IMG/VR virus record: IMGVR_UViG_3300003322_000872
Span: 612-64,611 of that record
DNA: 64,000 bases
Direction: 5' to 3' (one strand)
Origin: a virus
The notes under the pieces were generated by a model. The model worked only from the letters and a program-made list of their open reading frames with translations. It was not told the origin of the DNA and ran no database searches. A program made the position numbers and the translations under genes. Each line of letters opens with the position of its first letter. The first letter of the stretch is position 1. Positions 28,446-62,834 of this stretch are shown one piece after another.

Positions 28446-28746
28446 CCATTTCAACGGCCTCACACCCAAGGACGCCGAGCTATTAGCCATGCTCTCTGAA
28501 GAAGCGGCCGAGATCATACAGATCAAGGAAAAGATCATGCGGCATGGTTTTGATAGTCATCATCCAGCAAAGAGATACGGTCCAAATAACCGAATAGAGC
28601 TATCAAGGGAAATTGGTGATCTCCTCGGAGTATATGATCGGCTTGTAATGTTGGGGATTATTGATCCGCATGAAGTCGACATATATCGAGCCTCTAAGAT
28701 GGATCGCGCCAAGCCCTATCTACACCATCAAGACGATCCGGGGTAG
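28438..28746 (+). CDS. MazG-like nucleotide pyrophosphohydrolase-fold protein
   Basis: EEAAEIIQ..EK..RHG...REIGDLL acidic helical motif. Confidence 0.65.
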   Translation: MTDHFNGLTPKDAELLAMLSEEAAEIIQIKEKIMRHGFDSHHPAKRYGPNNRIELSREIGDLLGVYDRLVMLGIIDPHEVDIYRASKMDRAKPYLHHQDDPG

Positions 28747-28826
28747 TAGCTCAATGGTAGAGCACTTGCGTGTAGTGGCCACCCTGGACGCAAGGGTTGG
28801 AGGTTCGATTCCTCCCTATTCCACCA
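28740..28826 (+). tRNA. Atypical tRNA-like gene with a 20-nt anticodon loop; G3:U70 and A73 (Ala-type acceptor)
   Basis: Acceptor GGGGTAG/CTATTCC+ACCA; D arm GCTC-AATGGTA-GAGC; stem CTTGC/GCAAG; T arm GGAGG-TTCGATT-CCTCC. Confidence 0.8.
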
Positions 28827-46395: not shown

Positions 46396-48177
46396 CTATT
46401 CACAGCTCTTCTGGCCAGTCGTTGGATCGAAGGTGCATGCCATACCCAACGACATTTCCAACTCACGATCCAACGACGGAAACGTTTGTACTGGCGTTTC
46501 CGTCTTGGCTTTTTTCAACAGCCCCATTCGCCGCCCTTCCGGATTGAAGGTCGTAATGCCCTTGCACCCGAGCTCATGTGCCTTGCGATAAACCCCCTTA
46601 AACTCATCCCAGGGCATCGCCGGGTTAACATTGCAGGTTTTGGATACCGCGCTGTCCACATAGCGCTGGGCCGTCGACAAGACAGCAATATGCTCGTCGA
46701 TCGTAACTTGTTCGGCAAGCTTAGGGATCGTGCCGAACTGCGAATAAGCATAATCGGGGAGTCGCGCCATGACAACACCATCAGGGGTGTTAATGGGTCG
46801 CTCAGTTTCCAGGGCGAACACCGGCTCCGCACCAGATGAGATGTTATCAGCCGCCATTGATATGGTGCCGGTTGGTGCGATCGATGTAAGGTGCGAGTTG
46901 CGAATGCCAAAGCGCTTGATAAGCTCGAAAACATCCTGATCCAAATTGCGAAGGAAGGAGCTCTTCAGATAACGGTCGTCGTAGAGCGGGAAAGCGCTCT
47001 TAGTCGCCGCCAGCATGGCAGATGCCCGGTAAGACTCGTTCATTAAGGTCGATCCGATCGCGGCCTGGAAGTCGAGGAACTTCTTGCTGCCATAAGGCAT
47101 CCCCAACGTCTCCGCCGCGTTCGCTAGACCGGTATATCCTAGCCCCATGCGACGCTTGTTCTTGGCCTCCCTCTCCTGTTCCGGCAACGGATAGATCGCA
47201 ACATCGATAACGTTATCCATCGCCTCCACCACGACCGGGATATCCTCGATAAAGGTATCCCAATCAAATTCGTATTGGCCGAGAGCATTGACCTCGATGT
47301 AACGGACCAAATTGAACGAGCCGAGCAGGCAAGCCCCAAAGGGCGGTAACGGCTGCTCGCCGCATGGATTGGTAGCGGCAAGTTTTTCACAGTACCAGAG
47401 ATTGTTCATCCGGTTGATCTGATCGATGAACAGGACTCCTGGCTCGCCCCAATCCCACGTAGAGCGCATGATCTGTTCCCATAGCATCAGAGGGTCGATC
47501 TCTCCAAAAGACCGACCCTCGAACCGTAACGTAAATGATTTGCCGCTGTCCAAATGCTCCATGAATTCATCGGTAACAGCTGTCGATATATTGAACCCTG
47601 ATAGGGTGTCCTGATCATGCTTGGCATTCACGAATTCAAGGATGTCTGGATGATCGATCCGAAGCACACCCATCTGTGCCCCTCGCCGATGCCCTGCCGA
47701 CGCTACGGCTTTGCCGACCGCATTGTAAATCTTCATAAACGCGATGACACCGGATGAGCTCGACTGGAGAGTCTTGATCATCGCCCCATTCGGCCGCAGA
47801 GTAGAGAAATCATAACCAATCCCCCCGCCCACGCGCATGGTCGCCGCCGCTTGTTCGGCACGATGCATGATCGATGAATTGTGCTCGTTGTCTCTATCAA
47901 CAAAACTGTCGGGAATGGTGCCCGACACGAAGCAGTTATACGGAGTAGTTTGGCGGGTTGCCCCGATCGCGGCCTGAATACGGCCCGCCGGGATAAACCG
48001 CATAGACAGCAAAATTTCGCGAAGATCGTGATAAGCCTCACGCGTATCAGTAAGTACAGCCGACACTCTGTTCATTGCATCCCTAAATGTTTCACCGTGC
48101 TGGCGGTATTTCATGGCGTGCAGATCGTCGCAAAATTGCAATGCTGGCCCAAACATAGTTATTCTCCTGGGAATCAA
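46396..48177 (-). CDS. nrdJ: Class II (adenosylcobalamin-dependent) ribonucleotide reductase
   Basis: FIPAGR, TPYNCFV, GHRRGAQM, TNPCGEQPL, SIAPTGTIS; C-terminal Cys pair; no ATP cone; no NrdB gene nearby. Confidence 0.92.
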   Translation of the reverse strand: MIPRRITMFGPALQFCDDLHAMKYRQHGETFRDAMNRVSAVLTDTREAYHDLREILLSMRFIPAGRIQAAIGATRQTTPYNCFVSGTIPDSFVDRDNEHNSSIMHRAEQAAATMRVGGGIGYDFSTLRPNGAMIKTLQSSSSGVIAFMKIYNAVGKAVASAGHRRGAQMGVLRIDHPDILEFVNAKHDQDTLSGFNISTAVTDEFMEHLDSGKSFTLRFEGRSFGEIDPLMLWEQIMRSTWDWGEPGVLFIDQINRMNNLWYCEKLAATNPCGEQPLPPFGACLLGSFNLVRYIEVNALGQYEFDWDTFIEDIPVVVEAMDNVIDVAIYPLPEQEREAKNKRRMGLGYTGLANAAETLGMPYGSKKFLDFQAAIGSTLMNESYRASAMLAATKSAFPLYDDRYLKSSFLRNLDQDVFELIKRFGIRNSHLTSIAPTGTISMAADNISSGAEPVFALETERPINTPDGVVMARLPDYAYSQFGTIPKLAEQVTIDEHIAVLSTAQRYVDSAVSKTCNVNPAMPWDEFKGVYRKAHELGCKGITTFNPEGRRMGLLKKAKTETPVQTFPSLDRELEMSLGMACTFDPTTGQKSCE

Positions 48178-48222
48178 TGGGTTGTGGAACCCCCTTACTT
48201 TATATCGGCAAGTAACTGCTAT

Positions 48223-48996
48223 CTATAGCTTTAATTCGCCTTGCGAACGTAGCCAATGTGCAGCAGTATGTCTTGCATCGACATCGACCTTATCTGGATT
48301 CTTTACGACCCATTCAAGATAATCCTTTGGAACTACACGCCACTCCATATCCCTATACTTCTTTAGCCGACAAATACGCTGAAGTACAGGCAAATTTGGA
48401 TCGGATAATCTTGCAAGCTCTTCGATTGGCTTGAGTTCTAGCATCTTCAACAAGATTTCAGTCGTGATGATAACGTCGAACAATGCCCGATGCGGCGCGA
48501 CAGCTTCCGCCGGTAGGTCCGGGGGGACGTAGAAGTTGCGGCCAATGCCCAGGTAATAGCGGAGCTTCTGGTTGCCATAACCGGGTGCGTCGGGATAGAG
48601 GTGGGCCGCGATCCGGTATGTGTCCAACCACCGCGCCGGGTCAGCATAGCGCGTGCCGAGTCGGCACAAGAACCCCCGGTCAAACACAGCATTGTGTGCC
48701 ACCCAATAGTCGGGATCACCGCCGAGCTCTTCATGGGCGGTTTTGATCATCTCAGCTGGTGATGGACAATCGGCTACATCCTCGTCCATGATATGATGAG
48801 TCGCCATTGCATCCACCGGGATTGGCTTGCCGGGGTTACACATCCAACTGTGATATCGCTCATGGCACCAACCGATATCTTTGTCATGGACAATATCGTG
48901 GCAGGCGTATTCAACCAGAGACTCTTGCTCGGGCTCGGTGCCGGTGGTTTCCGTATCGATAATTCTAAGTCGCATCTGCTTTCCTCTCCAGATCAT
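48223..48996 (-). CDS. DEDDh 3'-5' exonuclease (ExoX-like)
   Basis: IIDTETTG, HNAVFD, LDT and HRALFDV; C-terminal KYRD..W..VPKDYLEW. Confidence 0.9.
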   Translation of the reverse strand: MIWRGKQMRLRIIDTETTGTEPEQESLVEYACHDIVHDKDIGWCHERYHSWMCNPGKPIPVDAMATHHIMDEDVADCPSPAEMIKTAHEELGGDPDYWVAHNAVFDRGFLCRLGTRYADPARWLDTYRIAAHLYPDAPGYGNQKLRYYLGIGRNFYVPPDLPAEAVAPHRALFDVIITTEILLKMLELKPIEELARLSDPNLPVLQRICRLKKYRDMEWRVVPKDYLEWVVKNPDKVDVDARHTAAHWLRSQGELKL

Positions 48997-58967: not shown

Positions 58968-59478
58968 GGCCGACGCCGCTCTTAGCGGCTACCGGGCCGC
59001 GCTCTTGATTTTGATACTTTCCAGTATCGGGATAAGCCTGTTCGGTCGGCTCGTCCAGACGATGGAAGATTACTTGAGCGATCGGGGTGCCGGCGACCAG
59101 TTTTGTCCTCGTGTACTCGGTTCCGGGCCAAAACTTTTCCCACATCTGCCGATTAACTGGGATATTGCATGATATCTCCAGTGTAAGAAATCCGGACCAC
59201 CCAGGCTCTGCCACTGTATTCTGTACTGCGATCCCGCGCCGCGCCCATGTAGACTTGTCGTGGATGATCCCAACCACATCTGTCGGCATGTGGAAGCGTT
59301 CCATCGTCGAGGCCAGTGTAAAGCCGCCCGGTTCGATGACGATATCCTGATCCAGCCGCAGATCATATCCACAGGCCGATAGGCCAAAACTGCAGCCAGA
59401 CTCCGGATGTTGCTGGCGCTCAACCATGGGATCGAGCAGCTTAAGGCGACGGATAGTTTGTGCAGAAAGAATGGTCAT
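58960..59478 (-). CDS. dcd: dCTP deaminase
   Basis: GLSACGYDLRL, DKSTWARRG, AEPGWSGFLTLE, IAQVIF, KYQNQ. Confidence 0.9.
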   Translation of the reverse strand: MTILSAQTIRRLKLLDPMVERQQHPESGCSFGLSACGYDLRLDQDIVIEPGGFTLASTMERFHMPTDVVGIIHDKSTWARRGIAVQNTVAEPGWSGFLTLEISCNIPVNRQMWEKFWPGTEYTRTKLVAGTPIAQVIFHRLDEPTEQAYPDTGKYQNQERGPVAAKSGVGHG

Positions 59479-60395
59479 TTGAACCTCTGTCTCGGGGCAC
59501 CTTCCCCGGTTTTCACCCGCATATATTTATCGAGTTCGCAAAGCGAATGCTCGATATCCCGCATTTCCAGGGACGGCCACTCAGCGGGCCAGAGCTCACG
59601 ATCTTCGGACAAGAATAACAGCTGCCGCATTTCCTCGATAAATTTGGCCTTGGGTTGCTTGAACTTAAGATCGCGGCCGAGTAGCCGGTTAAGACCACGC
59701 ATCGCGCCGGGGCCAGGATTGGCCCACGTCATGATGTCGGGAGCCTTGTTAAGCAGAGGCGTATGGCGGAGATCGGTTACGATCTCATAGGCCATGAAGT
59801 CACCGAGGTAGGGAAACTGACGGAGCCAATACCATACATCTTCAAGCTTCATATTGTCTTCAATAAGCATACGAACAGTGGCCCCCTTCCAATCATATGC
59901 TTCGCTCATGGGAAAATGCCTATAGAACGTATAAAATTGCTCAACGCACCACAGTACACCATCCAACTTAGATTTCCCATCCGGGGTCTTGATAATATAC
60001 GACCCTGTCACATACGGACCCTTACCGCAGTAACTGACAAGAGCCGATCGGATCGCGCCGGTATTCCCCCCGGACCCGACAAATTCGTCCCACGCGGTGG
60101 CACCGGGGGGAGACGTGTCCATGCGAGTTTGATCAAAGATGGCTTCTCCGGCTGCGATCCGGTTAAACCAGCGAAAGAGGACAGTGGCAAGCAATACATT
60201 ATCCACTGGCACTCTTTTGCGGACATGTTCGCGCAGCCAGATCGTGGTGCGATCTAACTCACGGAACACATTACAGAAGCGATATTCCTGGAAAATCGGA
60301 TCGTTGGTCCATTGCCCGCGCGGCAACCCGGCCTGCCGATTTAGATAAATCTGGTGGCGAGCGCGCATGTAGTCAAAGAGGGGCGAGGCGTCCAT
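59475..60395 (-). CDS. aGPT-Pplase / amino acid:DNA transferase-like protein (paralogue 1)
   Basis: ATG 60395 with SD AGGAG; RHQIY..R..G.P...WT.DPI...YRFCNVFRELDRTT...FRWFN...TG.YII...G.FMAYEIVTDL...GPGA.RGL...EH.LCE.DKY. Confidence 0.9.
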   Translation of the reverse strand: MDASPLFDYMRARHQIYLNRQAGLPRGQWTNDPIFQEYRFCNVFRELDRTTIWLREHVRKRVPVDNVLLATVLFRWFNRIAAGEAIFDQTRMDTSPPGATAWDEFVGSGGNTGAIRSALVSYCGKGPYVTGSYIIKTPDGKSKLDGVLWCVEQFYTFYRHFPMSEAYDWKGATVRMLIEDNMKLEDVWYWLRQFPYLGDFMAYEIVTDLRHTPLLNKAPDIMTWANPGPGAMRGLNRLLGRDLKFKQPKAKFIEEMRQLLFLSEDRELWPAEWPSLEMRDIEHSLCELDKYMRVKTGEGAPRQRFK

Positions 60396-60437
60396 CGGTG
60401 ATCTCCTGTTTAGATCGTTTATGCCGTATGAGGTCAT

Positions 60438-60477
60438 AAAAGAAAAGGGCCAGCACCATCTCTGGTTACTGACCCTT
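60438..60477 (-). terminator. Rho-independent terminator closing the ncRNA locus
   Basis: AAGGGTCAGTAACCA-GAGA-TGGTGCTGGCCCTT followed by TTCTTTT. Confidence 0.75.
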
Positions 60478-60542
60478 CCGGATACTTCGAGGCGCTCTGC
60501 CCGGTCATGGAGCCCGGCTGTACATTACCTCCCTCTTGTACC

Positions 60543-60630
60543 CACAGCGACGAAATCTAAGCAGATTCCTCGGATGCTTAATCCGAAGCTTTGGTTTGGA
60601 AAGCTGTAATCCGCTCAAGCATTCGCTGTA
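60543..60630 (-). ncRNA. Second Y RNA-like RNA (no tRNA module; YrlB/Yrn-like)
   Basis: UACAGCGA-AUGCU-UGAGCGGAUU ... AAUCUGCUUA-GAUUUCG-UCGCUGUG long stem; two apical hairpins (AGCUUU/AAAGCU, UCGGAU/AUCCGA); shares GCGAAUGCUUG and UCGUCGCUG with the first Y RNA. Confidence 0.75.
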
Positions 60631-60635
60631 TTCTT

Positions 60636-60712
60636 TGGTGGGGTTCGATAGTTCCAACAGGAGAGCCCAACGAGCGTCCCTCGATCTGGTACAAAACCTT
60701 TAACACCACCCC
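60636..60712 (-). ncRNA. 77-nt structured element ending in ACCA
   Basis: 5' GGGGU pairs with ACCCC followed by A-CCA; bulged long stem with two inner hairpins; no canonical T arm. Confidence 0.4.
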
Positions 60713-60785
60713 GACGATGATCAATCGCCGGTATAGAACTTTAGGAGAACCGAACGACTAAGGCTATTAGTCCGATCCTCCACAT

Positions 60786-60924
60786 ACCCATCAGCGACGA
60801 GTAGTGTATAGACGTTTACCGCGTCCTAACCACTAGACGATCACTCTTGGCAGAGCGAGTCGGACTCGAACCGACGTTTCGGGCTAGCAAAGCCTGTAGT
60901 CCATACAAGCATTCGCCAATGGGT
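60786..60924 (-). ncRNA. yrlA: YrlA-type Y RNA (circularly permuted tRNA mimic on a Ro60-binding-type stem)
   Basis: Outer stem ACCCAUUGGCGA/UCGCUGAUGGGU with GGCGAAUG (GNCGAAN0-1G); inner stem UGUAUGGAC/GUCUAUACA; T arm GUCGG-UUCGAGU-CCGAC, acceptor UCGCUCU-GCCA-AGAGUGA and D arm GUCU-AGUGGUUA-GGAC in T-AS-D order. Confidence 0.88.
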
Positions 60925-60979
60925 GACACAGGGCTTACGCCCAGTGTTTCGCTCTTGTGCGGTAGAGCTCATCAGACCC
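60921..60979 (-). ncRNA. Type I hammerhead ribozyme, predicted cleavage GUC/ between 60925 and 60924
   Basis: GGGU-CUGAUGA-GCUCU(ACCGCACA)AGAGC-GAA-ACAC(U)GGGC(GUAA)GCCC(U)GUGU-C/ACCC: intact core and three stems. Confidence 0.92.
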
Positions 60980-61270
60980 GTATTCGGTGCCCGCTACGCT
61001 CTTCGTCCTATGTTACACTCGGACTCCGGGTACGTAGCGGGCGGTCGGCGTTGTTCATTTCCCCGATATTTTTACAGCCTTAACCCTCGGGGTGAGCGGG
61101 GTATTAACTCGATTTTAGTTTTCCCCGGCTCTGCAGTCCTGAGCTTGGGGAGGGACGTATCCCAGATTTATCCTATCTCTAGAGGCCTTCTAAGCGGACT
61201 TGCAGGTTTGCGGTCGGCTAGTGCTGCGGCCTAGGTTCAAGATAAGGCAAGAGGAATCACAAGTAAAGGC

Positions 61271-61714
61271 TCATTTCTGGGCTTGTTTCATCCACTCATC
61301 GAAGCGCGCCATTCGTTCGTTGAGATTATCCTCACCATACTTACGAACGAGCTCCTTAACCCGCGTCCAATCGGGTACGGATTTAGGATTGGTTTCCACC
61401 TTGGAATAGGACAGCCCTCGAAGGAATCCGTAGGCGATTAGGGCCGATCGCGCTTCGGACCGCACTTCACCGGTGCGATGGTAACGGAGGCCCCAGAAAA
61501 TCTGGAGGTTACGATCGGAAGGCGCGATCAACTTACGGGTAAGTTTTTGGCGCTCGGTATCGGTAAGGTCGTTGGACCGGGCAAGCATGCGGCGAGCACG
61601 CACTCGGCCCCGATGCCCCACGTTATGTCGGCGCTCCTCACGATGAATCATCGTGGCTTCAGCAGCGAGGGACATGATTTTGATTTTCAGATAGGTATGC
61701 ATGATTTTCTCCAT
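61271..61714 (-). CDS. Conserved phage hypothetical protein
   Basis: YLKIKIMSLAAEA..I..EERR...HR..EVR.EAR...IAYGFLRG..Y..VE. Confidence 0.7.
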   Translation of the reverse strand: MEKIMHTYLKIKIMSLAAEATMIHREERRHNVGHRGRVRARRMLARSNDLTDTERQKLTRKLIAPSDRNLQIFWGLRYHRTGEVRSEARSALIAYGFLRGLSYSKVETNPKSVPDWTRVKELVRKYGEDNLNERMARFDEWMKQAQK

Positions 61715-61774
61715 TGTGTTATATGATGATGGGGAGGAGAAAATCTAGGTGGTGATCGGGCAGTCTACATGGAA

Positions 61775-61849
61775 TGGTATCCTATGAGGGAATCGAACCC
61801 TCCCACTGGGTTTTAGAGGCCCTGCTTCAACCACCGAAGCTCATAGGAC
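61775..61849 (-). tRNA. tRNA with CUA anticodon (amber-suppressor type)
   Basis: Acceptor GTCCTAT/ATAGGAT+ACCA; D arm GCTTC..GAAGC; loop CT-CTA-AA on a weak stem (3 G-C pairs); T arm GAGGG-TTCGATT-CCCTC. Confidence 0.8.
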
Positions 61850-61949
61850 TTAAATTTGTTCCCTCACCCAAGAGCAACTTGATCTATAACCGTCCGGCCC
61901 TTACTATCGGATACCGGCTGAGAGCACATGTTTTATAAACCGATCACGG

Positions 61950-61989
61950 TAAAAAAGAAAACCCACCTCTTCTCGAAAAAGAGATGGGT
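61950..61989 (-). terminator. Rho-independent terminator
   Basis: ACCCATCTCTTT-TTCG-AGAAGAGGTGGGT-type hairpin followed by TTTCTTTTTT on the minus strand. Confidence 0.65.
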
Positions 61990-62039
61990 CATCGATCTGC
62001 ACTTGCTTACCCAGGATCGCACCCCCTGGAGGCGACCGA

Positions 62040-62834
62040 TTACTTGATGTTGATGAAGCCCTGCTTGGTATCCCAGTTAAGGTCGGCGCGGACGATACCG
62101 GCTTCCATGGCTTCCTTCACGGTCATGCCGGATTTGTACTTGAGAAACCGGTTGCCGGCGGCGGAGCCCGCGCGCTTCGGGCTGTAGAACGTGCCGTCGG
62201 ACTGCGGGCCGTAGGTCTTGTTCTCGTTGTCCTTGCCGAACGTGATCACGCCAGTTTCCGGGAACTTAGCGGTCTTGGGTCCGGTGGTGGTGGCTTCGCC
62301 ATTTGCGGCGGCCTTCTTGGTTTTGGTGGTTGCGGCGGCTTCGTCGGCCATTTTGGTACTCTCTTCTGTTGGGTGGCGACGCTGTATAACGCCCTCCACG
62401 CGGGTTTTCTGTCGATCAAGGGCTATGAGACGCAGTACCTCTGCTGGGTCCGAAGGAGGCCGCTGGGCATGGGATACTAGAAGGTTCCACAACCGTTCCA
62501 GGTACTCCGTCACTCGCTTCTTGCCATCTAATTCGAGCGCCAACCTCTCTTCACCGAGACGATAGGCGATCCGAACCAGTTCTAAATTCGACCAGAGCTT
62601 TGGGATATCCGAGGGACCTCGGCATAGGGCATCACCATATTGGATAAGGGCATGCTCGTCCGCTTTTTCGAGGCTATCAAATAACCATAAATCGCCCAAG
62701 CCTCCTCGAGTAACTGCGATGCACTGCATTCTCATATCCTTACCTGACTGATCTATATTCGGTGAGTACAGATATAAAAAGCCCCTGTTCTCGACATTTG
62801 TAAGCCATGTATCAGATATTATAGCATAATCCAC
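62040..62834 (-). CDS. Hypothetical protein whose C-terminal 103 aa (ATG 62351) carry the 'PKRxGS...DxxWD' domain (paralogue 3)
   Basis: SPKRAGSAAGNRFLKY...DLNWDTKQGFINIK; codon style changes at MADEAAAT. Confidence 0.7.
   Translation of the reverse strand: MDYAIISDTWLTNVENRGFLYLYSPNIDQSGKDMRMQCIAVTRGGLGDLWLFDSLEKADEHALIQYGDALCRGPSDIPKLWSNLELVRIAYRLGEERLALELDGKKRVTEYLERLWNLLVSHAQRPPSDPAEVLRLIALDRQKTRVEGVIQRRHPTEESTKMADEAAATTKTKKAAANGEATTTGPKTAKFPETGVITFGKDNENKTYGPQSDGTFYSPKRAGSAAGNRFLKYKSGMTVKEAMEAGIVRADLNWDTKQGFINIK

What the first reader, a model, noticed from the sequence alone, without database searches (positions are those of the whole stretch)
60786..60924. YrlA-type tRNA-mimic Y RNA whose closed acceptor stem is capped by GCCA
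Seen: T arm, then 7-bp acceptor stem (UCGCUCU/AGAGUGA), then D arm with GG. This is a circularly permuted tRNA mounted on a long stem bearing GGCGAAUG. The 4-nt acceptor loop reads discriminator G + CCA exactly. An extra hairpin (GGCU-UUGCU-AGCC) precedes the T arm. Established: YrlA RNAs have this T-AS-D architecture and a GNCGAAN(0-1)G motif. Inference: one cut 3' of the CCA (RNase P-like, as in permuted tRNA/tmRNA genes) would give a two-piece RNA with a true 3'-CCA end. That product could be aminoacylated or act as a decoy for tRNA-sensing or tRNA-cleaving defences while lacking an anticodon.
Basis: partly seen in the sequence, partly recalled or inferred. Interest (0 to 1): 0.8.

Follow-up and report, generated by a model that had tools for sequence, protein, structure and literature searches.

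The report
Phage Y RNA with CCA-capped stem
A phage from a plant-root metagenome encodes a tRNA-shaped "Y RNA" whose closed acceptor stem is capped by exactly the G-CCA that ends a real tRNA; the same design recurs in other phage Y RNAs and probably lets host RNase P open it into a two-piece RNA with a tRNA-like CCA tail, as was shown experimentally for one mycobacterial Y RNA.

Summary
Window 60924-60786 (minus strand) is a YrlA-type Y RNA. A covariance model built from 16 other YrlA RNAs hits it over its full length (65.8 bits, E 8e-13). Its acceptor-like stem has exactly 7 bp and its loop is only G73-CCA.

M. smegmatis YrlA (7-bp stem) is cut by RNase P and gains a CCA tail (Chen 2014). The "extra hairpin" is the known V arm.

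What I add: in-register N73-CCA is not conserved across the family, but it recurs. It occurs in 4 of 25 modules that were not selected for CCA (P about 6e-4 to 0.03, depending on the null). With pattern-selected cases, that is eight other phage Y RNAs, including mycobacteriophage Myrna. All have 7-position stems, and most have a short spacer ending in U.

This phage has the only zero-spacer case. It also has no Ro60 gene, and a canonical hammerhead would cut exactly at the RNA's first base.

No RNA data exist, so cleavage here is inferred. Aminoacylation and decoy roles remain speculative.

Earlier scan notes reported CCA in the capping loops of a related, DUF7873-linked tRNA-mimic family on other DNA.

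The parts
60786..60924 (-). YrlA-type Y RNA, 139 nt: Ro-type basal stem plus a V-T-AS-D tRNA-like module
   Evidence: R1 covariance model 65.8 bits, E 8.3e-13, full length. Rfam RF02553 33.4 bits, E 9.3e-5. Fold z = -3.4.
60910..60917 (-). GGCGAAUG, the GNCGAAN0-1G Ro60-binding motif in the 5' strand of the basal stem
   Evidence: Read from the sequence. CGAAUG is invariant in 16 other YrlA RNAs. The motif is defined in PMC4201824.
60882..60894 (-). V hairpin GGCU-UUGCU-AGCC, preceded by CUAC (the YUAY element)
   Evidence: Sequence and minimum-free-energy fold. The V arm is described in PMC4201824.
60859..60875 (-). T arm: 5-bp stem and UUCGAGU loop
   Evidence: Sequence. Aligned to the T arm of both models.
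60852..60858 (-). Acceptor-stem strand equivalent to tRNA positions 66-72 (UCGCUCU)
   Evidence: Pairs 7 of 7 with 60847-60841.
60848..60851 (-). Loop GCCA = discriminator G73 plus C74 C75 A76. The predicted RNase P cut lies between 60848 and 60847.
   Evidence: Sequence. A cut here gives 77 + 62 nt. In-register CCA recurs in other phage YrlA RNAs.
60841..60847 (-). Acceptor-stem strand equivalent to tRNA positions 1-7 (AGAGUGA), followed by U8 C9
   Evidence: Sequence. Pairing shown.
60823..60838 (-). D arm GUCU-AGUGGUUA-GGAC with A14, G15, G18, G19, A21. This is a tRNA-Glu-type D arm.
   Evidence: Sequence. The same D arm occurs in tRNA-Glu genes of 16 phage tRNA dimers and in phage Lacusarx.
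60925..60992 (-). Type I hammerhead ribozyme. Stem I GGGU/ACCC, CUGAUGA, stem II GCUC/GAGC, GAAA, stem III closed by GUAA, then UC with the cut between 60925 and 60924.
   Evidence: The only site in the 77-kb genome, with none in 200 dinucleotide-preserving shuffles. Rfam HH9 gives only 17.6 bits, E 0.79. The same hammerhead-Y RNA junction occurs in L024, L029 and L033/L035.
60537..60635 (-). Second, short Y RNA (YrlB-like). It has the same Ro-type stem (GCGAAUGCUUG / UCGUCGCUG), with two hairpins in place of the tRNA module.
   Evidence: R1 29.1 bits, E 7.4e-5. Fold z = -3.7.

Best explanation
The feature is a phage-encoded YrlA-type Y RNA. It lies on a non-coding stretch of one strand, between two terminator-like hairpins, that also holds a suppressor tRNA, a small ORF and a second, short Y RNA.

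Proposed steps:
1. A type I hammerhead cuts itself off at the RNA's first base. Its stem I uses the same ACCC that later forms the Y RNA's basal stem.
2. The GGCGAAUG stem docks the host's Ro60/Rsr, because the phage has no Ro gene of its own.
3. The tRNA-like module has a tRNA-grade acceptor end: 7 bp stacked on a 5-bp T stem, then G73-CCA.
4. Host RNase P most likely cuts 5' of position +1 (between 60848 and 60847). This would give a nicked two-piece RNA of 77 + 62 nt whose 5' piece already ends in CCA-3'OH. No trimming or CCA addition would be needed.
5. The two pieces would stay together through the Ro stem, the acceptor stem and the D/T elbow.

Shown here: family membership, geometry, recurrence of in-register CCA, the hammerhead motif and the absence of a Ro gene. 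Inferred: the RNase P cut, Ro binding and hammerhead activity. The confidence value refers to the cut; identity as a YrlA-type RNA is about 0.95.
For: Family membership:
- R1 hit at E 8.3e-13 and Rfam YrlA full-model match.
- The family's helices covary.

Acceptor geometry:
- Exactly 7 bp, then U8.
- Chen 2014 names the 7-bp stem as the reason why only M. smegmatis YrlA is cut by RNase P. It is found as 82 + 65-nt halves carrying a CCA tail.

Recurrence of in-register N73-CCA:
- 4 of 25 modules with 7-position stems that were retrieved without reference to CCA carry it. These are G002_Y2, L369:4853-4998, L356:4484-4629 and mycobacteriophage Myrna.
- P = 6e-4 under a uniform null, 1.5e-3 under pooled loop composition and 0.027 under a position-specific null.
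- A CCA-anchored pattern found four more, all confirmed by R1 at E 1e-12 to 5e-18.
- In the 8-sequence alignment of these CCA-chosen RNAs, CCA is invariant by construction, while the stems differ completely and still pair.
- The spacer after the CCA ends in U in 5 of the 8 cases that have a spacer. By established knowledge, U at -1 is what bacterial RNase P prefers.

Other support:
- Zero-spacer tRNA-CCA-tRNA junctions are common in phage arrays, at least 125 hits. RNase P therefore routinely cuts directly after an encoded CCA.
- ARAGORN calls the RNA, opened at the predicted cut, as a tRNA spanning 1-139 when introns are allowed.
- Hammerhead: one site in the genome and none in 200 shuffles, cutting at 60924.
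- No TROVE or vWA_Ro60 domain in the 100%-complete genome.
Against: - No RNA data exist. Only one DNA run, a root metagenome, holds the sequence.
- No close relative with a tRNA module was found, so conservation of CCA within this lineage could not be tested.
- Most YrlA RNAs have no CCA in the loop, and 5-bp stems capped by GNRA or UUCG loops are common.
- This is the only case with no spacer. A closed 4-nt loop cannot both offer its CCA to the P15 loop of RNase P RNA and serve as the leader, so cleavage may be poor.
- The statistics weaken to P = 0.027 under the most conservative null. CUU is as frequent as CCA at the same loop positions.
- The Rfam score is below the curated threshold.
- Which host it infects, and whether that host has Rsr, is unknown.
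Confidence: 0.55

Rival explanations
1. The acceptor hairpin stays closed, as in Salmonella YrlA. On this view the GCCA is a relic, or chance. The tRNA-like module was copied from a zero-spacer tRNA-CCA-tRNA junction in a phage tRNA array, and the CCA has no role of its own. The RNA acts as an intact Ro60-tethering tRNA mimic.
For: - S. Typhimurium YrlA and D. radiodurans Yrn1 are not cut, and most YrlA RNAs are regarded as closed, permuted tRNA mimics.
- Zero-spacer tRNA-CCA-tRNA junctions are abundant in phages.
- The D arm is a tRNA-Glu type, unlike the D arm of most YrlA RNAs, which suggests module exchange with tRNA genes.
- Phage Lacusarx carries T-AS-D modules with the same D arm inside its tRNA cluster.
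- 21 of 25 unselected modules lack CCA.
- A 4-nt closed loop is a sterically poor RNase P substrate (inference).
Against: - In-register CCA is enriched over all three nulls.
- It always sits on 7-position stems, and the stems diverge around it.
- GCCA is not a stable tetraloop class, whereas closed 5-bp family members use GNRA or UUCG loops.
- The M. smegmatis precedent shows that 7-bp members are cut in vivo.
Confidence: 0.33
2. After RNase P cleavage, the CCA end is used as a tRNA end. Either the nicked Y RNA is aminoacylated, or it titrates factors that read or attack tRNA 3' ends or acceptor stems. Candidates are CCA-modifying or acceptor-cleaving toxins, the CCA-adding enzyme and exonucleases. 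This role might be connected with the neighbouring suppressor tRNA.
For: - A complete G73-CCA on a 7-bp stem with a full D/T elbow.
- Chen 2014 raised possible aminoacylation of the cut M. smegmatis RNA.
- The RNA lies in a cassette with a suppressor tRNA and a conserved small ORF. That tRNA-ORF pair recurs in 11 of 12 loci, and four of the loci, the window included, also carry Y-like RNAs.
- A V hairpin sits where a class II variable arm would be.
Against: - There is no anticodon.
- The acceptor stem lacks the known anticodon-independent identity marks: A3-U70 rather than G3.U70, and no G-1 (sequence plus established identity rules).
- The phage encodes no CCA-adding enzyme and no RtcB.
- I saw no sign of stop-codon recoding.
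- No defence or toxin link was found.
Confidence: 0.08
3. It is not a Y RNA but a circularly permuted tRNA gene that is rearranged into a working tRNA.
For: - It has the T-AS-D order, an encoded CCA and flush paired ends.
- The hammerhead would leave a 5'-OH that an RtcB-type ligase could join (inference).
- Permuted tRNA genes mature through circular intermediates (discussion of Soma 2007).
Against: - There is no anticodon loop. The 'anticodon arm' is a 12-bp plus 9-bp Ro-type stem carrying GGCGAAUG.
- No second ribozyme or cyclic-phosphate-forming element was found at the 3' end.
- ARAGORN detects the permuted form only when a large intron is allowed.
Confidence: 0.02

Closest known systems
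Mycobacterium smegmatis YrlA (Chen et al. 2014, PMC4201824; Wang et al. 2018, 10.1101/312249)
   Same: It is a Y RNA with a GNCGAAN0-1G stem and a V-T-AS-D tRNA-like module. Its acceptor-like stem is 7 bp. It is cut by RNase P at the tRNA +1 position and exists as two Ro-bound halves, the 5' half ending in CCA.
   Different: In M. smegmatis the CCA is completed after cleavage, by nibbling and addition of CA. Here G73-CCA is fully encoded and is the whole loop. The mycobacterial RNA lies next to rsr, whereas this phage has no Ro gene. Here the 5' end is set by a hammerhead. Cleavage is shown there and only inferred here.
Salmonella Typhimurium YrlA (Rfam RF02553; crystal structure in 10.1101/312249)
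   Same: Same family, same order of arms, same tRNA tertiary-pair nucleotides and a closed acceptor hairpin.
   Different: The Salmonella stem is 6 bp with a CCG loop and is not cut by RNase P. It lies in the rsr-yrlBA-rtcBA operon. The window's RNA scores below Rfam's gathering cut-off.
YrlA of Ro60-encoding phages: mycobacteriophage Myrna (NC_011273, just upstream of gp227 Ro) and IMG/VR records G002 and G005-G008
   Same: They have a 7-position acceptor stem followed by in-register N73-CCA (loops ACCACAA, ACCAC, GCCAAUUU, GCCACUAU, GCCAAAAU, ACCACUAU, UCCAACUUAU, ACCAUAA). They are phage-borne and usually have several Y RNA paralogues.
   Different: All have a 1-6-nt spacer after the CCA. 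All these genomes have a match to the Ro60 (TROVE) domain; the matches in G005 and G006 are below Pfam's cut-off. None of the examples I inspected showed a hammerhead.
Two-piece tmRNA from permuted ssrA genes, and permuted tRNA genes of Cyanidioschyzon (from my own knowledge; the latter is also discussed in 10.1101/312249)
   Same: The 3' acceptor strand with its CCA is encoded upstream of the 5' acceptor strand. The hairpin is opened by tRNA-processing endonucleases.
   Different: Those products are aminoacylated and act in translation. This RNA has a Ro-type stem and no anticodon or tag-reading frame.
Zero-spacer tRNA-CCA-tRNA junctions in phage tRNA arrays
   Same: Locally the same string: T arm, 7-nt strand, N73, CCA, 7-nt strand, U8, D arm. 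RNase P cuts directly after the CCA.
   Different: In the dimers the two acceptor strands belong to different tRNAs and do not pair with each other. None of 125 pairs 7 of 7.
DUF7873-linked double tRNA-mimic RNA
   Same: These are circularly permuted T-AS-D modules. Some were reported with CCA in the capping loop, and they also occur in phage tRNA clusters.
   Different: Those are two modules in one RNA of about 360-400 nt, without a Ro motif, lying next to a DUF7873 gene. Here there is a single module on a Ro-type stem, and the flanking ORFs match no Pfam family.

Membership tests
YrlA / bacterial Y RNA (Rfam RF02553; Chen 2014) | Score at or above Rfam's curated gathering cut-off (69 bits) | tested here: not met
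   33.4 bits, E 9.3e-5, full model 1-114. No hit in gathering mode.
YrlA / bacterial Y RNA (Rfam RF02553; Chen 2014) | Sequence-and-structure match to independent family members | tested here: met
   R1 was built from 16 YrlA RNAs. Some of these lie next to Ro60 and RtcB genes. With the window left out, R1 scores 65.8 bits, E 8.3e-13, positions 1-142 of 142.
YrlA / bacterial Y RNA (Rfam RF02553; Chen 2014) | GNCGAAN0-1G motif in the 5' strand of a long terminal stem | tested here: met
   GGCGAAUG at 60917-60910 within a 12-bp terminal stem.
YrlA / bacterial Y RNA (Rfam RF02553; Chen 2014) | V (YUAY), T, acceptor-like and D stem-loops in that order, with tRNA-invariant nucleotides | tested here: met
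   CUAC plus V hairpin, T loop UUCGAGU with G53-C61, U8, A14, G15/C48, G18 G19 and A21, all read from the sequence. The four family helices modelled in R1 (basal, T, acceptor, D) covary.
YrlA / bacterial Y RNA (Rfam RF02553; Chen 2014) | Encoded next to a Ro60/Rsr (TROVE) gene | tested here: not met
   No PF05731 or PF25045 match anywhere in the 77,484-bp genome, which CheckV rates 100% complete. Another complete phage record with a YrlA (G003) also lacks Ro.
YrlA / bacterial Y RNA (Rfam RF02553; Chen 2014) | Bound by Ro60; modified by TruB and DusA | not testable with these tools
   Needs immunoprecipitation and modification mapping.
RNase P-cleaved, CCA-tailed YrlA (M. smegmatis type) | Seven-base-pair acceptor-like stem | tested here: met
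   UCGCUCU / AGAGUGA, 7 of 7 pairs, followed by U8.
RNase P-cleaved, CCA-tailed YrlA (M. smegmatis type) | Cleavage by RNase P at +1, giving two stable halves | not testable with these tools
   No RNA run holds the sequence.
RNase P-cleaved, CCA-tailed YrlA (M. smegmatis type) | CCA at the 3' end of the 5' half | tested here: inconclusive
   G73-CCA is encoded in register, so the cut alone would give it. The product has not been observed.
Hammerhead ribozyme, type I | Conserved core (CUGAUGA, GAAA, U-H cleavage site) with three helices, stem I open | tested here: met
   All core positions are present. Stem II is 4-5 bp, stem III is 8 bp with one U.U mismatch, and stem I is at least 4 bp. It is the only site in the genome, with none in 200 shuffles.
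Hammerhead ribozyme, type I | Rfam gathering score; self-cleavage | tested here: not met
   HH9 scores 17.6 bits against a cut-off of 52, E 0.79. Self-cleavage cannot be tested here.
Circularly permuted tRNA gene | Anticodon stem-loop restored after processing | tested here: not met
   There is no anticodon loop. A Ro-type stem takes its place.
DUF7873-linked double tRNA-mimic RNA (earlier scan notes) | Two tandem T-AS-D modules directly after a DUF7873 gene | tested here: not met
   There is a single module. The upstream ORFs 62040-62834 and 61271-61714 match no Pfam family. The rest of the genome was not scanned for DUF7873.

The most novel reading that the evidence does not exclude
A subclass of phage Y RNAs, of which this is the most extreme member (zero spacer, Ro-less genome, ribozyme-released), would be built to become nicked tRNA look-alikes with a genuine CCA-3' end. 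That end would then be used: charged, or offered to enzymes and toxins that read tRNA 3' ends. This would work together with the neighbouring suppressor tRNA and the small protein that recurs beside such tRNAs, giving phages a Ro-linked way to manipulate the host's tRNA surveillance or translation.
Probability: 0.1. Interest if true: 0.85.

Novelty: new variant of a known kind. Interest (0 to 1): 0.55.

Why it matters
What the tRNA-like domain of bacterial and phage Y RNAs is for remains unknown. The one documented case of RNase P opening and CCA tailing (M. smegmatis) has been treated as an exception.

A recurring set of phage YrlA RNAs combines a 7-position stem with an encoded, in-register CCA. 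This suggests that a free CCA end is a selected feature of a subclass rather than an accident. It also gives simple constructs to test the idea: the wild-type loop, a GAAA loop and a 6-bp stem.

This window adds three further twists.
- The CCA is the entire loop.
- The phage has no Ro60 gene, so the RNA must work through the host's protein or without Ro60.
- A hammerhead defines the 5' end. I found no report of a hammerhead joined to a Y RNA in the searched paper library.

If the cut does not happen, the RNA is an ordinary closed tRNA-mimic Y RNA.

Tried and rejected
- **Close relatives, to test CCA conservation in this lineage: none found.** blastn against 50,697 phage records gave only a 62-nt match to phage Lacusarx. 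Relatives of the neighbouring gene at 59475-60437 (best Pfam match the helical domain of 5-hmdU DNA kinase, PF18723), at 30-56% identity, have no YrlA nearby. A pattern built on the T loop and D loop returned only tRNA dimers. A metagenome pattern gave seven loci, most holding distant YrlA RNAs. Homologues of ORF147 sit in other phages that have at most short Y-like RNAs.
- **Parent tRNA with the same D and T arms:** no hit.
- **M. smegmatis YrlA through a published primer sequence:** no hit in genome contigs, so its loop could not be compared directly.
- **CCA-anchored pattern in bacterial genomes:** I inspected only the two best-pairing hits, both ordinary tRNAs; none of the 118 had acceptor strands that pair with each other.
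- **RNA evidence:** a single DNA run holds the locus.
- **Other ribozymes or a defined 3'-end element:** Rfam in E-value mode found nothing else in 59500-62500. The 149-nt spacer folds weakly, z = -1.7.
- **Stop-codon recoding by the amber suppressor tRNA:** rejected for the one candidate. The in-frame TAG between 48996-48223 and the ribonucleotide reductase gene separates two genes.
- **Phage-encoded RtcB or CCA-adding enzyme:** absent.
- **Function of ORF147:** confident all-helical model (pLDDT 94), but no informative match by fold, Pfam or PHROG.
- **Host:** the nearest isolates reach at most 41% identity in DNA polymerase A.
- **GCCA pairing with UGGC in the basal stem:** considered and set aside. 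It is a 4-nt complement expected by chance, and the two sites lie at opposite ends of the L shape.
Full report
**Setting**

The window is bases 612-64611 of a 77,484-bp IMG/VR phage record that CheckV rates 100% complete. The only public run that holds the locus is a root-metagenome DNA run. The neighbouring genes point to a hydroxymethyl-uracil DNA-modification cluster: a protein matching the helical domain of 5-hmdU DNA kinase, a dCTP deaminase-like protein and a thymidylate synthase homologue. The nearest isolated phages share at most 41% identity in DNA polymerase A, so the host is unknown.

**The observation**

On the minus strand, 60924-60786 reads in this order:
- a 12-bp terminal stem whose 5' strand carries GGCGAAUG;
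- CUAC and a small hairpin (GGCU-UUGCU-AGCC);
- a T arm (GUCGG-UUCGAGU-CCGAC);
- a 7-bp stem UCGCUCU/AGAGUGA closed by the four bases GCCA;
- U8 C9;
- a D arm (GUCU-AGUGGUUA-GGAC).

The nucleotides that build the tRNA elbow and core are in place: U8, A14, G15 with C48, G18 G19, the T loop and G53-C61. The T stem (5 bp) plus the acceptor-like stem (7 bp) gives the 12-bp stack of a tRNA. The loop reads G73 C74 C75 A76 in exact tRNA register. A cut after the A gives 77 + 62 nt.

RNAfold recovers this architecture, z = -3.4.

**Is it a YrlA?**

Rfam's YrlA model matches end to end, but at 33.4 bits against a gathering score of 69 (E 9.3e-5 in a 3-kb search).

I therefore collected YrlA-type RNAs from viral and metagenomic contigs by DNA patterns. 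Some of them lie in the classical Ro60-YrlA-RtcB arrangement. I aligned 16 of them without the window and built covariance model R1.

R1 hits 60925-60784 at 65.8 bits, E 8.3e-13, over all 142 model positions. It also finds a second, shorter Y RNA at 60635-60537 (29.1 bits, E 7.4e-5) in which the T, acceptor and D arms are replaced by two hairpins.

Across 39 family matches, 94.9% of cells in the four helices are paired and 18 of 21 pairs show compensatory changes. The covariation score is 0.434, against at most 0.063 when partners are slid. That alignment was fitted to the model.

Membership in the YrlA kind is therefore solid, although two formal criteria fail: the Rfam threshold and adjacency to a Ro60 gene. 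Neither the TROVE domain nor the Ro60 vWA domain is encoded anywhere in the genome.

**What was already known**

They also showed that M. smegmatis YrlA, the one studied RNA with a 7-bp acceptor-like stem, behaves as follows:
- M1 RNA cuts it at the tRNA +1 position in vitro.
- In cells it exists as 82- and 65-nt halves bound to Rsr.
- It has CA added, so that the 5' half ends in CCA.

The 6-bp Salmonella RNA and D. radiodurans Yrn1 are not cut. Wang et al. 2018 (10.1101/312249) restate this and compare YrlA with permuted tRNA genes. What is particular here is that the discriminator and CCA are fully encoded and make up the whole loop.

**Is the CCA conserved?**

Across the family it is not. 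Acceptor-like stems range from 4 to 10 bp. Many 5-bp stems carry GNRA or UUCG loops, and most loops hold no CCA.

No close relative of this RNA could be found, so conservation within the lineage is untestable.

In-register N73-CCA does recur, however. I took the modules that have a 7-position stem and were retrieved without any reference to CCA. Four of 25 carry it:
- the second Y RNA of phage record G002 (loop ACCAC);
- L369:4853-4998 (loop GCCAAUUU);
- L356:4484-4629 (loop GCCACUAU);
- the YrlA just upstream of the Ro gene of mycobacteriophage Myrna (loop ACCACAA).

The binomial tail is 6e-4 against 1/64, 1.5e-3 against pooled loop composition, and 0.027 against a position-specific null that itself contains the CCA cases. 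As a caution, CUU is about as frequent as CCA at the same positions.

A CCA-anchored pattern then found four more (L355:2688-2835, L356:4335-4478, L364:351-503, L369:8178-8323). All have stems that pair 7 of 7, and R1 confirms all of them at E 1e-12 to 5e-18.

Further points from these cases:
- All the phage records concerned have a match to the Ro60 TROVE domain. Two of the matches are below Pfam's cut-off.
- In the eight-sequence alignment of these CCA-chosen RNAs, CCA is invariant by construction, while the flanking stem strands differ completely and still pair.
- The CCA is followed by 1-6 nt, and that spacer ends in U in five of eight cases. From established knowledge, U at -1 is the nucleotide bacterial RNase P prefers.
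- Position 74 is C in 13 of 25 unselected loops, P 0.015. This fits the partly encoded CCA of M. smegmatis.

The window's RNA is the only case with no spacer.

**Mechanistic reading**

In phage tRNA arrays, junctions of the form T arm, acceptor strand, N73-CCA and then directly the next tRNA are very common. I found at least 125 in a truncated scan, and none has acceptor strands that pair with each other 7 of 7. RNase P therefore routinely cuts directly 3' of an encoded CCA. The YrlA acceptor hairpin has the same topology as such a junction folded back on itself.

Taken with the M. smegmatis data, the most likely fate is a single RNase P cut between 60848 and 60847. This would give a nicked RNA whose 77-nt piece ends in CCA-3'OH.

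The main doubt is steric. In a 4-nt closed loop the CCA is also the leader. It cannot pair with the P15 loop of RNase P RNA as a free tail does.

Aminoacylation looks unlikely on known identity rules. There is no anticodon, position 3:70 is A-U rather than G.U, and there is no G-1. The phage encodes no CCA-adding enzyme and no RtcB.

**Context that changes the picture**

A canonical type I hammerhead lies directly 5' of the RNA, at 60992-60925. It has CUGAUGA, stem II GCUC/GAGC, GAAA, an 8-bp stem III closed by GUAA, and a UC cleavage site.
- Its cut falls exactly before A60924, the first paired base of the Y RNA.
- Its stem I (GGGU/ACCC) uses the bases that later form the Y RNA's terminal stem.
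- A purpose-written scanner finds this one site in the whole genome and none in 200 dinucleotide-preserving shuffles. Rfam's HH9 model gives only 17.6 bits.
- The same junction, with the hammerhead cut at or one base before the Y RNA stem, occurs in other viral contigs. These are L024 (a full YrlA inside a tRNA array), L029 and L033/L035 (short Y RNAs).

I found no paper linking hammerheads with Y RNAs. The first-stage reader logged this hammerhead as a separate finding.

The non-coding stretch lies between two terminator-like hairpins, at about 61990-61960 and about 60479-60436 (read from the sequence; weak ctRNA-like match). It also holds an amber-suppressor tRNA (61849-61775) and a 147-aa ORF.

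**Earlier notes of this scan**

Earlier notes describe a related DUF7873-linked RNA with two permuted tRNA-like modules. Some were reported with CCA in the capping loop. I did not test those claims. The window's RNA differs in having one module, a Ro-type stem and flanking ORFs that match no Pfam family.

**Verdict**

The proposed cut is a plausible instance of a published behaviour, and it now has comparative support as a recurrent subclass. It is unproven for this RNA. The decoy and charging ideas remain speculation.

Noticed in passing
window 60925-60992 (-); also L024:6030-6232, L029:6198-6333(-), L033:9144-9260, L035:1240-1364(-): A type I hammerhead is fused to the 5' end of Y RNAs, cutting at or one base before the first paired base. 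In L024 it sits between a tRNA and a full YrlA in a tRNA array. I found no paper describing a hammerhead-Y RNA link.
   Followed up: partly
window 60537-60635 (-): A second, short Y RNA shares GCGAAUGCUUG / UCGUCGCUG with the first. Two hairpins replace the tRNA module (R1 E 7e-5, fold z -3.7). This resembles a YrlA/YrlB pair in a phage without a Ro60 gene.
   Followed up: partly
window 61775-61849 (-) and 61271-61714 (-); loci L304-L319: The 147-aa ORF has about 20 homologues at 51-65% identity. In 11 of 12 assessable loci a suppressor tRNA (anticodon CUA or UCA) lies 50-200 nt upstream of it. Short Y-like RNAs precede the tRNA in L305-L307, L310 and L317/L318. The protein model is confident and all-helical (pLDDT 94), with no informative match by fold, Pfam or PHROG.
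   Followed up: partly
window 60988-61104 (-); L305:2250-2366: A non-coding element of about 115 nt is 80.5% identical between two otherwise different phages. The stem CCCGCUACG/CGUAGCGGG becomes CCCGUUGUG/CGCAACGGG through compensatory changes, and the loop GAGUGUAACAUAGG is invariant. It abuts the hammerhead here and follows a short Y RNA in L305. It has no Rfam match and the pattern was not found in IMG/VR.
   Followed up: partly
L065:1420-1562 (Sphingobium phage Lacusarx, KY629563 about 67080-67225): Two tandem, unannotated T-AS-D modules lie between tRNA genes, with a D arm identical to the window's. The first module has CCCA in register (6 of 7 stem pairs). I saw no Ro-type motif. It may belong to the double tRNA-mimic family noted earlier in this scan.
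   Followed up: no
L380:2263-2323 (Mycobacterium phage Myrna, NC_011273 about 131176-131236): The YrlA just upstream of the Ro gene gp227 has a 7-bp acceptor-like stem capped by ACCACAA, which is an in-register A73-CCA. A further T-arm-bearing RNA seems to lie about 100 nt upstream.
   Followed up: partly
window 28740-28826 (+): A tRNA-like gene with an enlarged anticodon loop. Rfam shows 18 nt where 5 are expected, and ARAGORN calls it tRNA-His (GUG) at position 36. It scores 56.9 bits.
   Followed up: no
window 46396-48996 (-): A DnaQ-like exonuclease gene ends in TAG and is followed in the same frame by the ribonucleotide reductase gene. Read through, the two parts look like separate proteins, so this is no evidence of amber recoding.
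   Followed up: yes
loci L066-L184 (viral contigs): Zero-spacer tRNA-CCA-tRNA junctions are very common in phage tRNA arrays. A truncated scan gave at least 125.
   Followed up: partly
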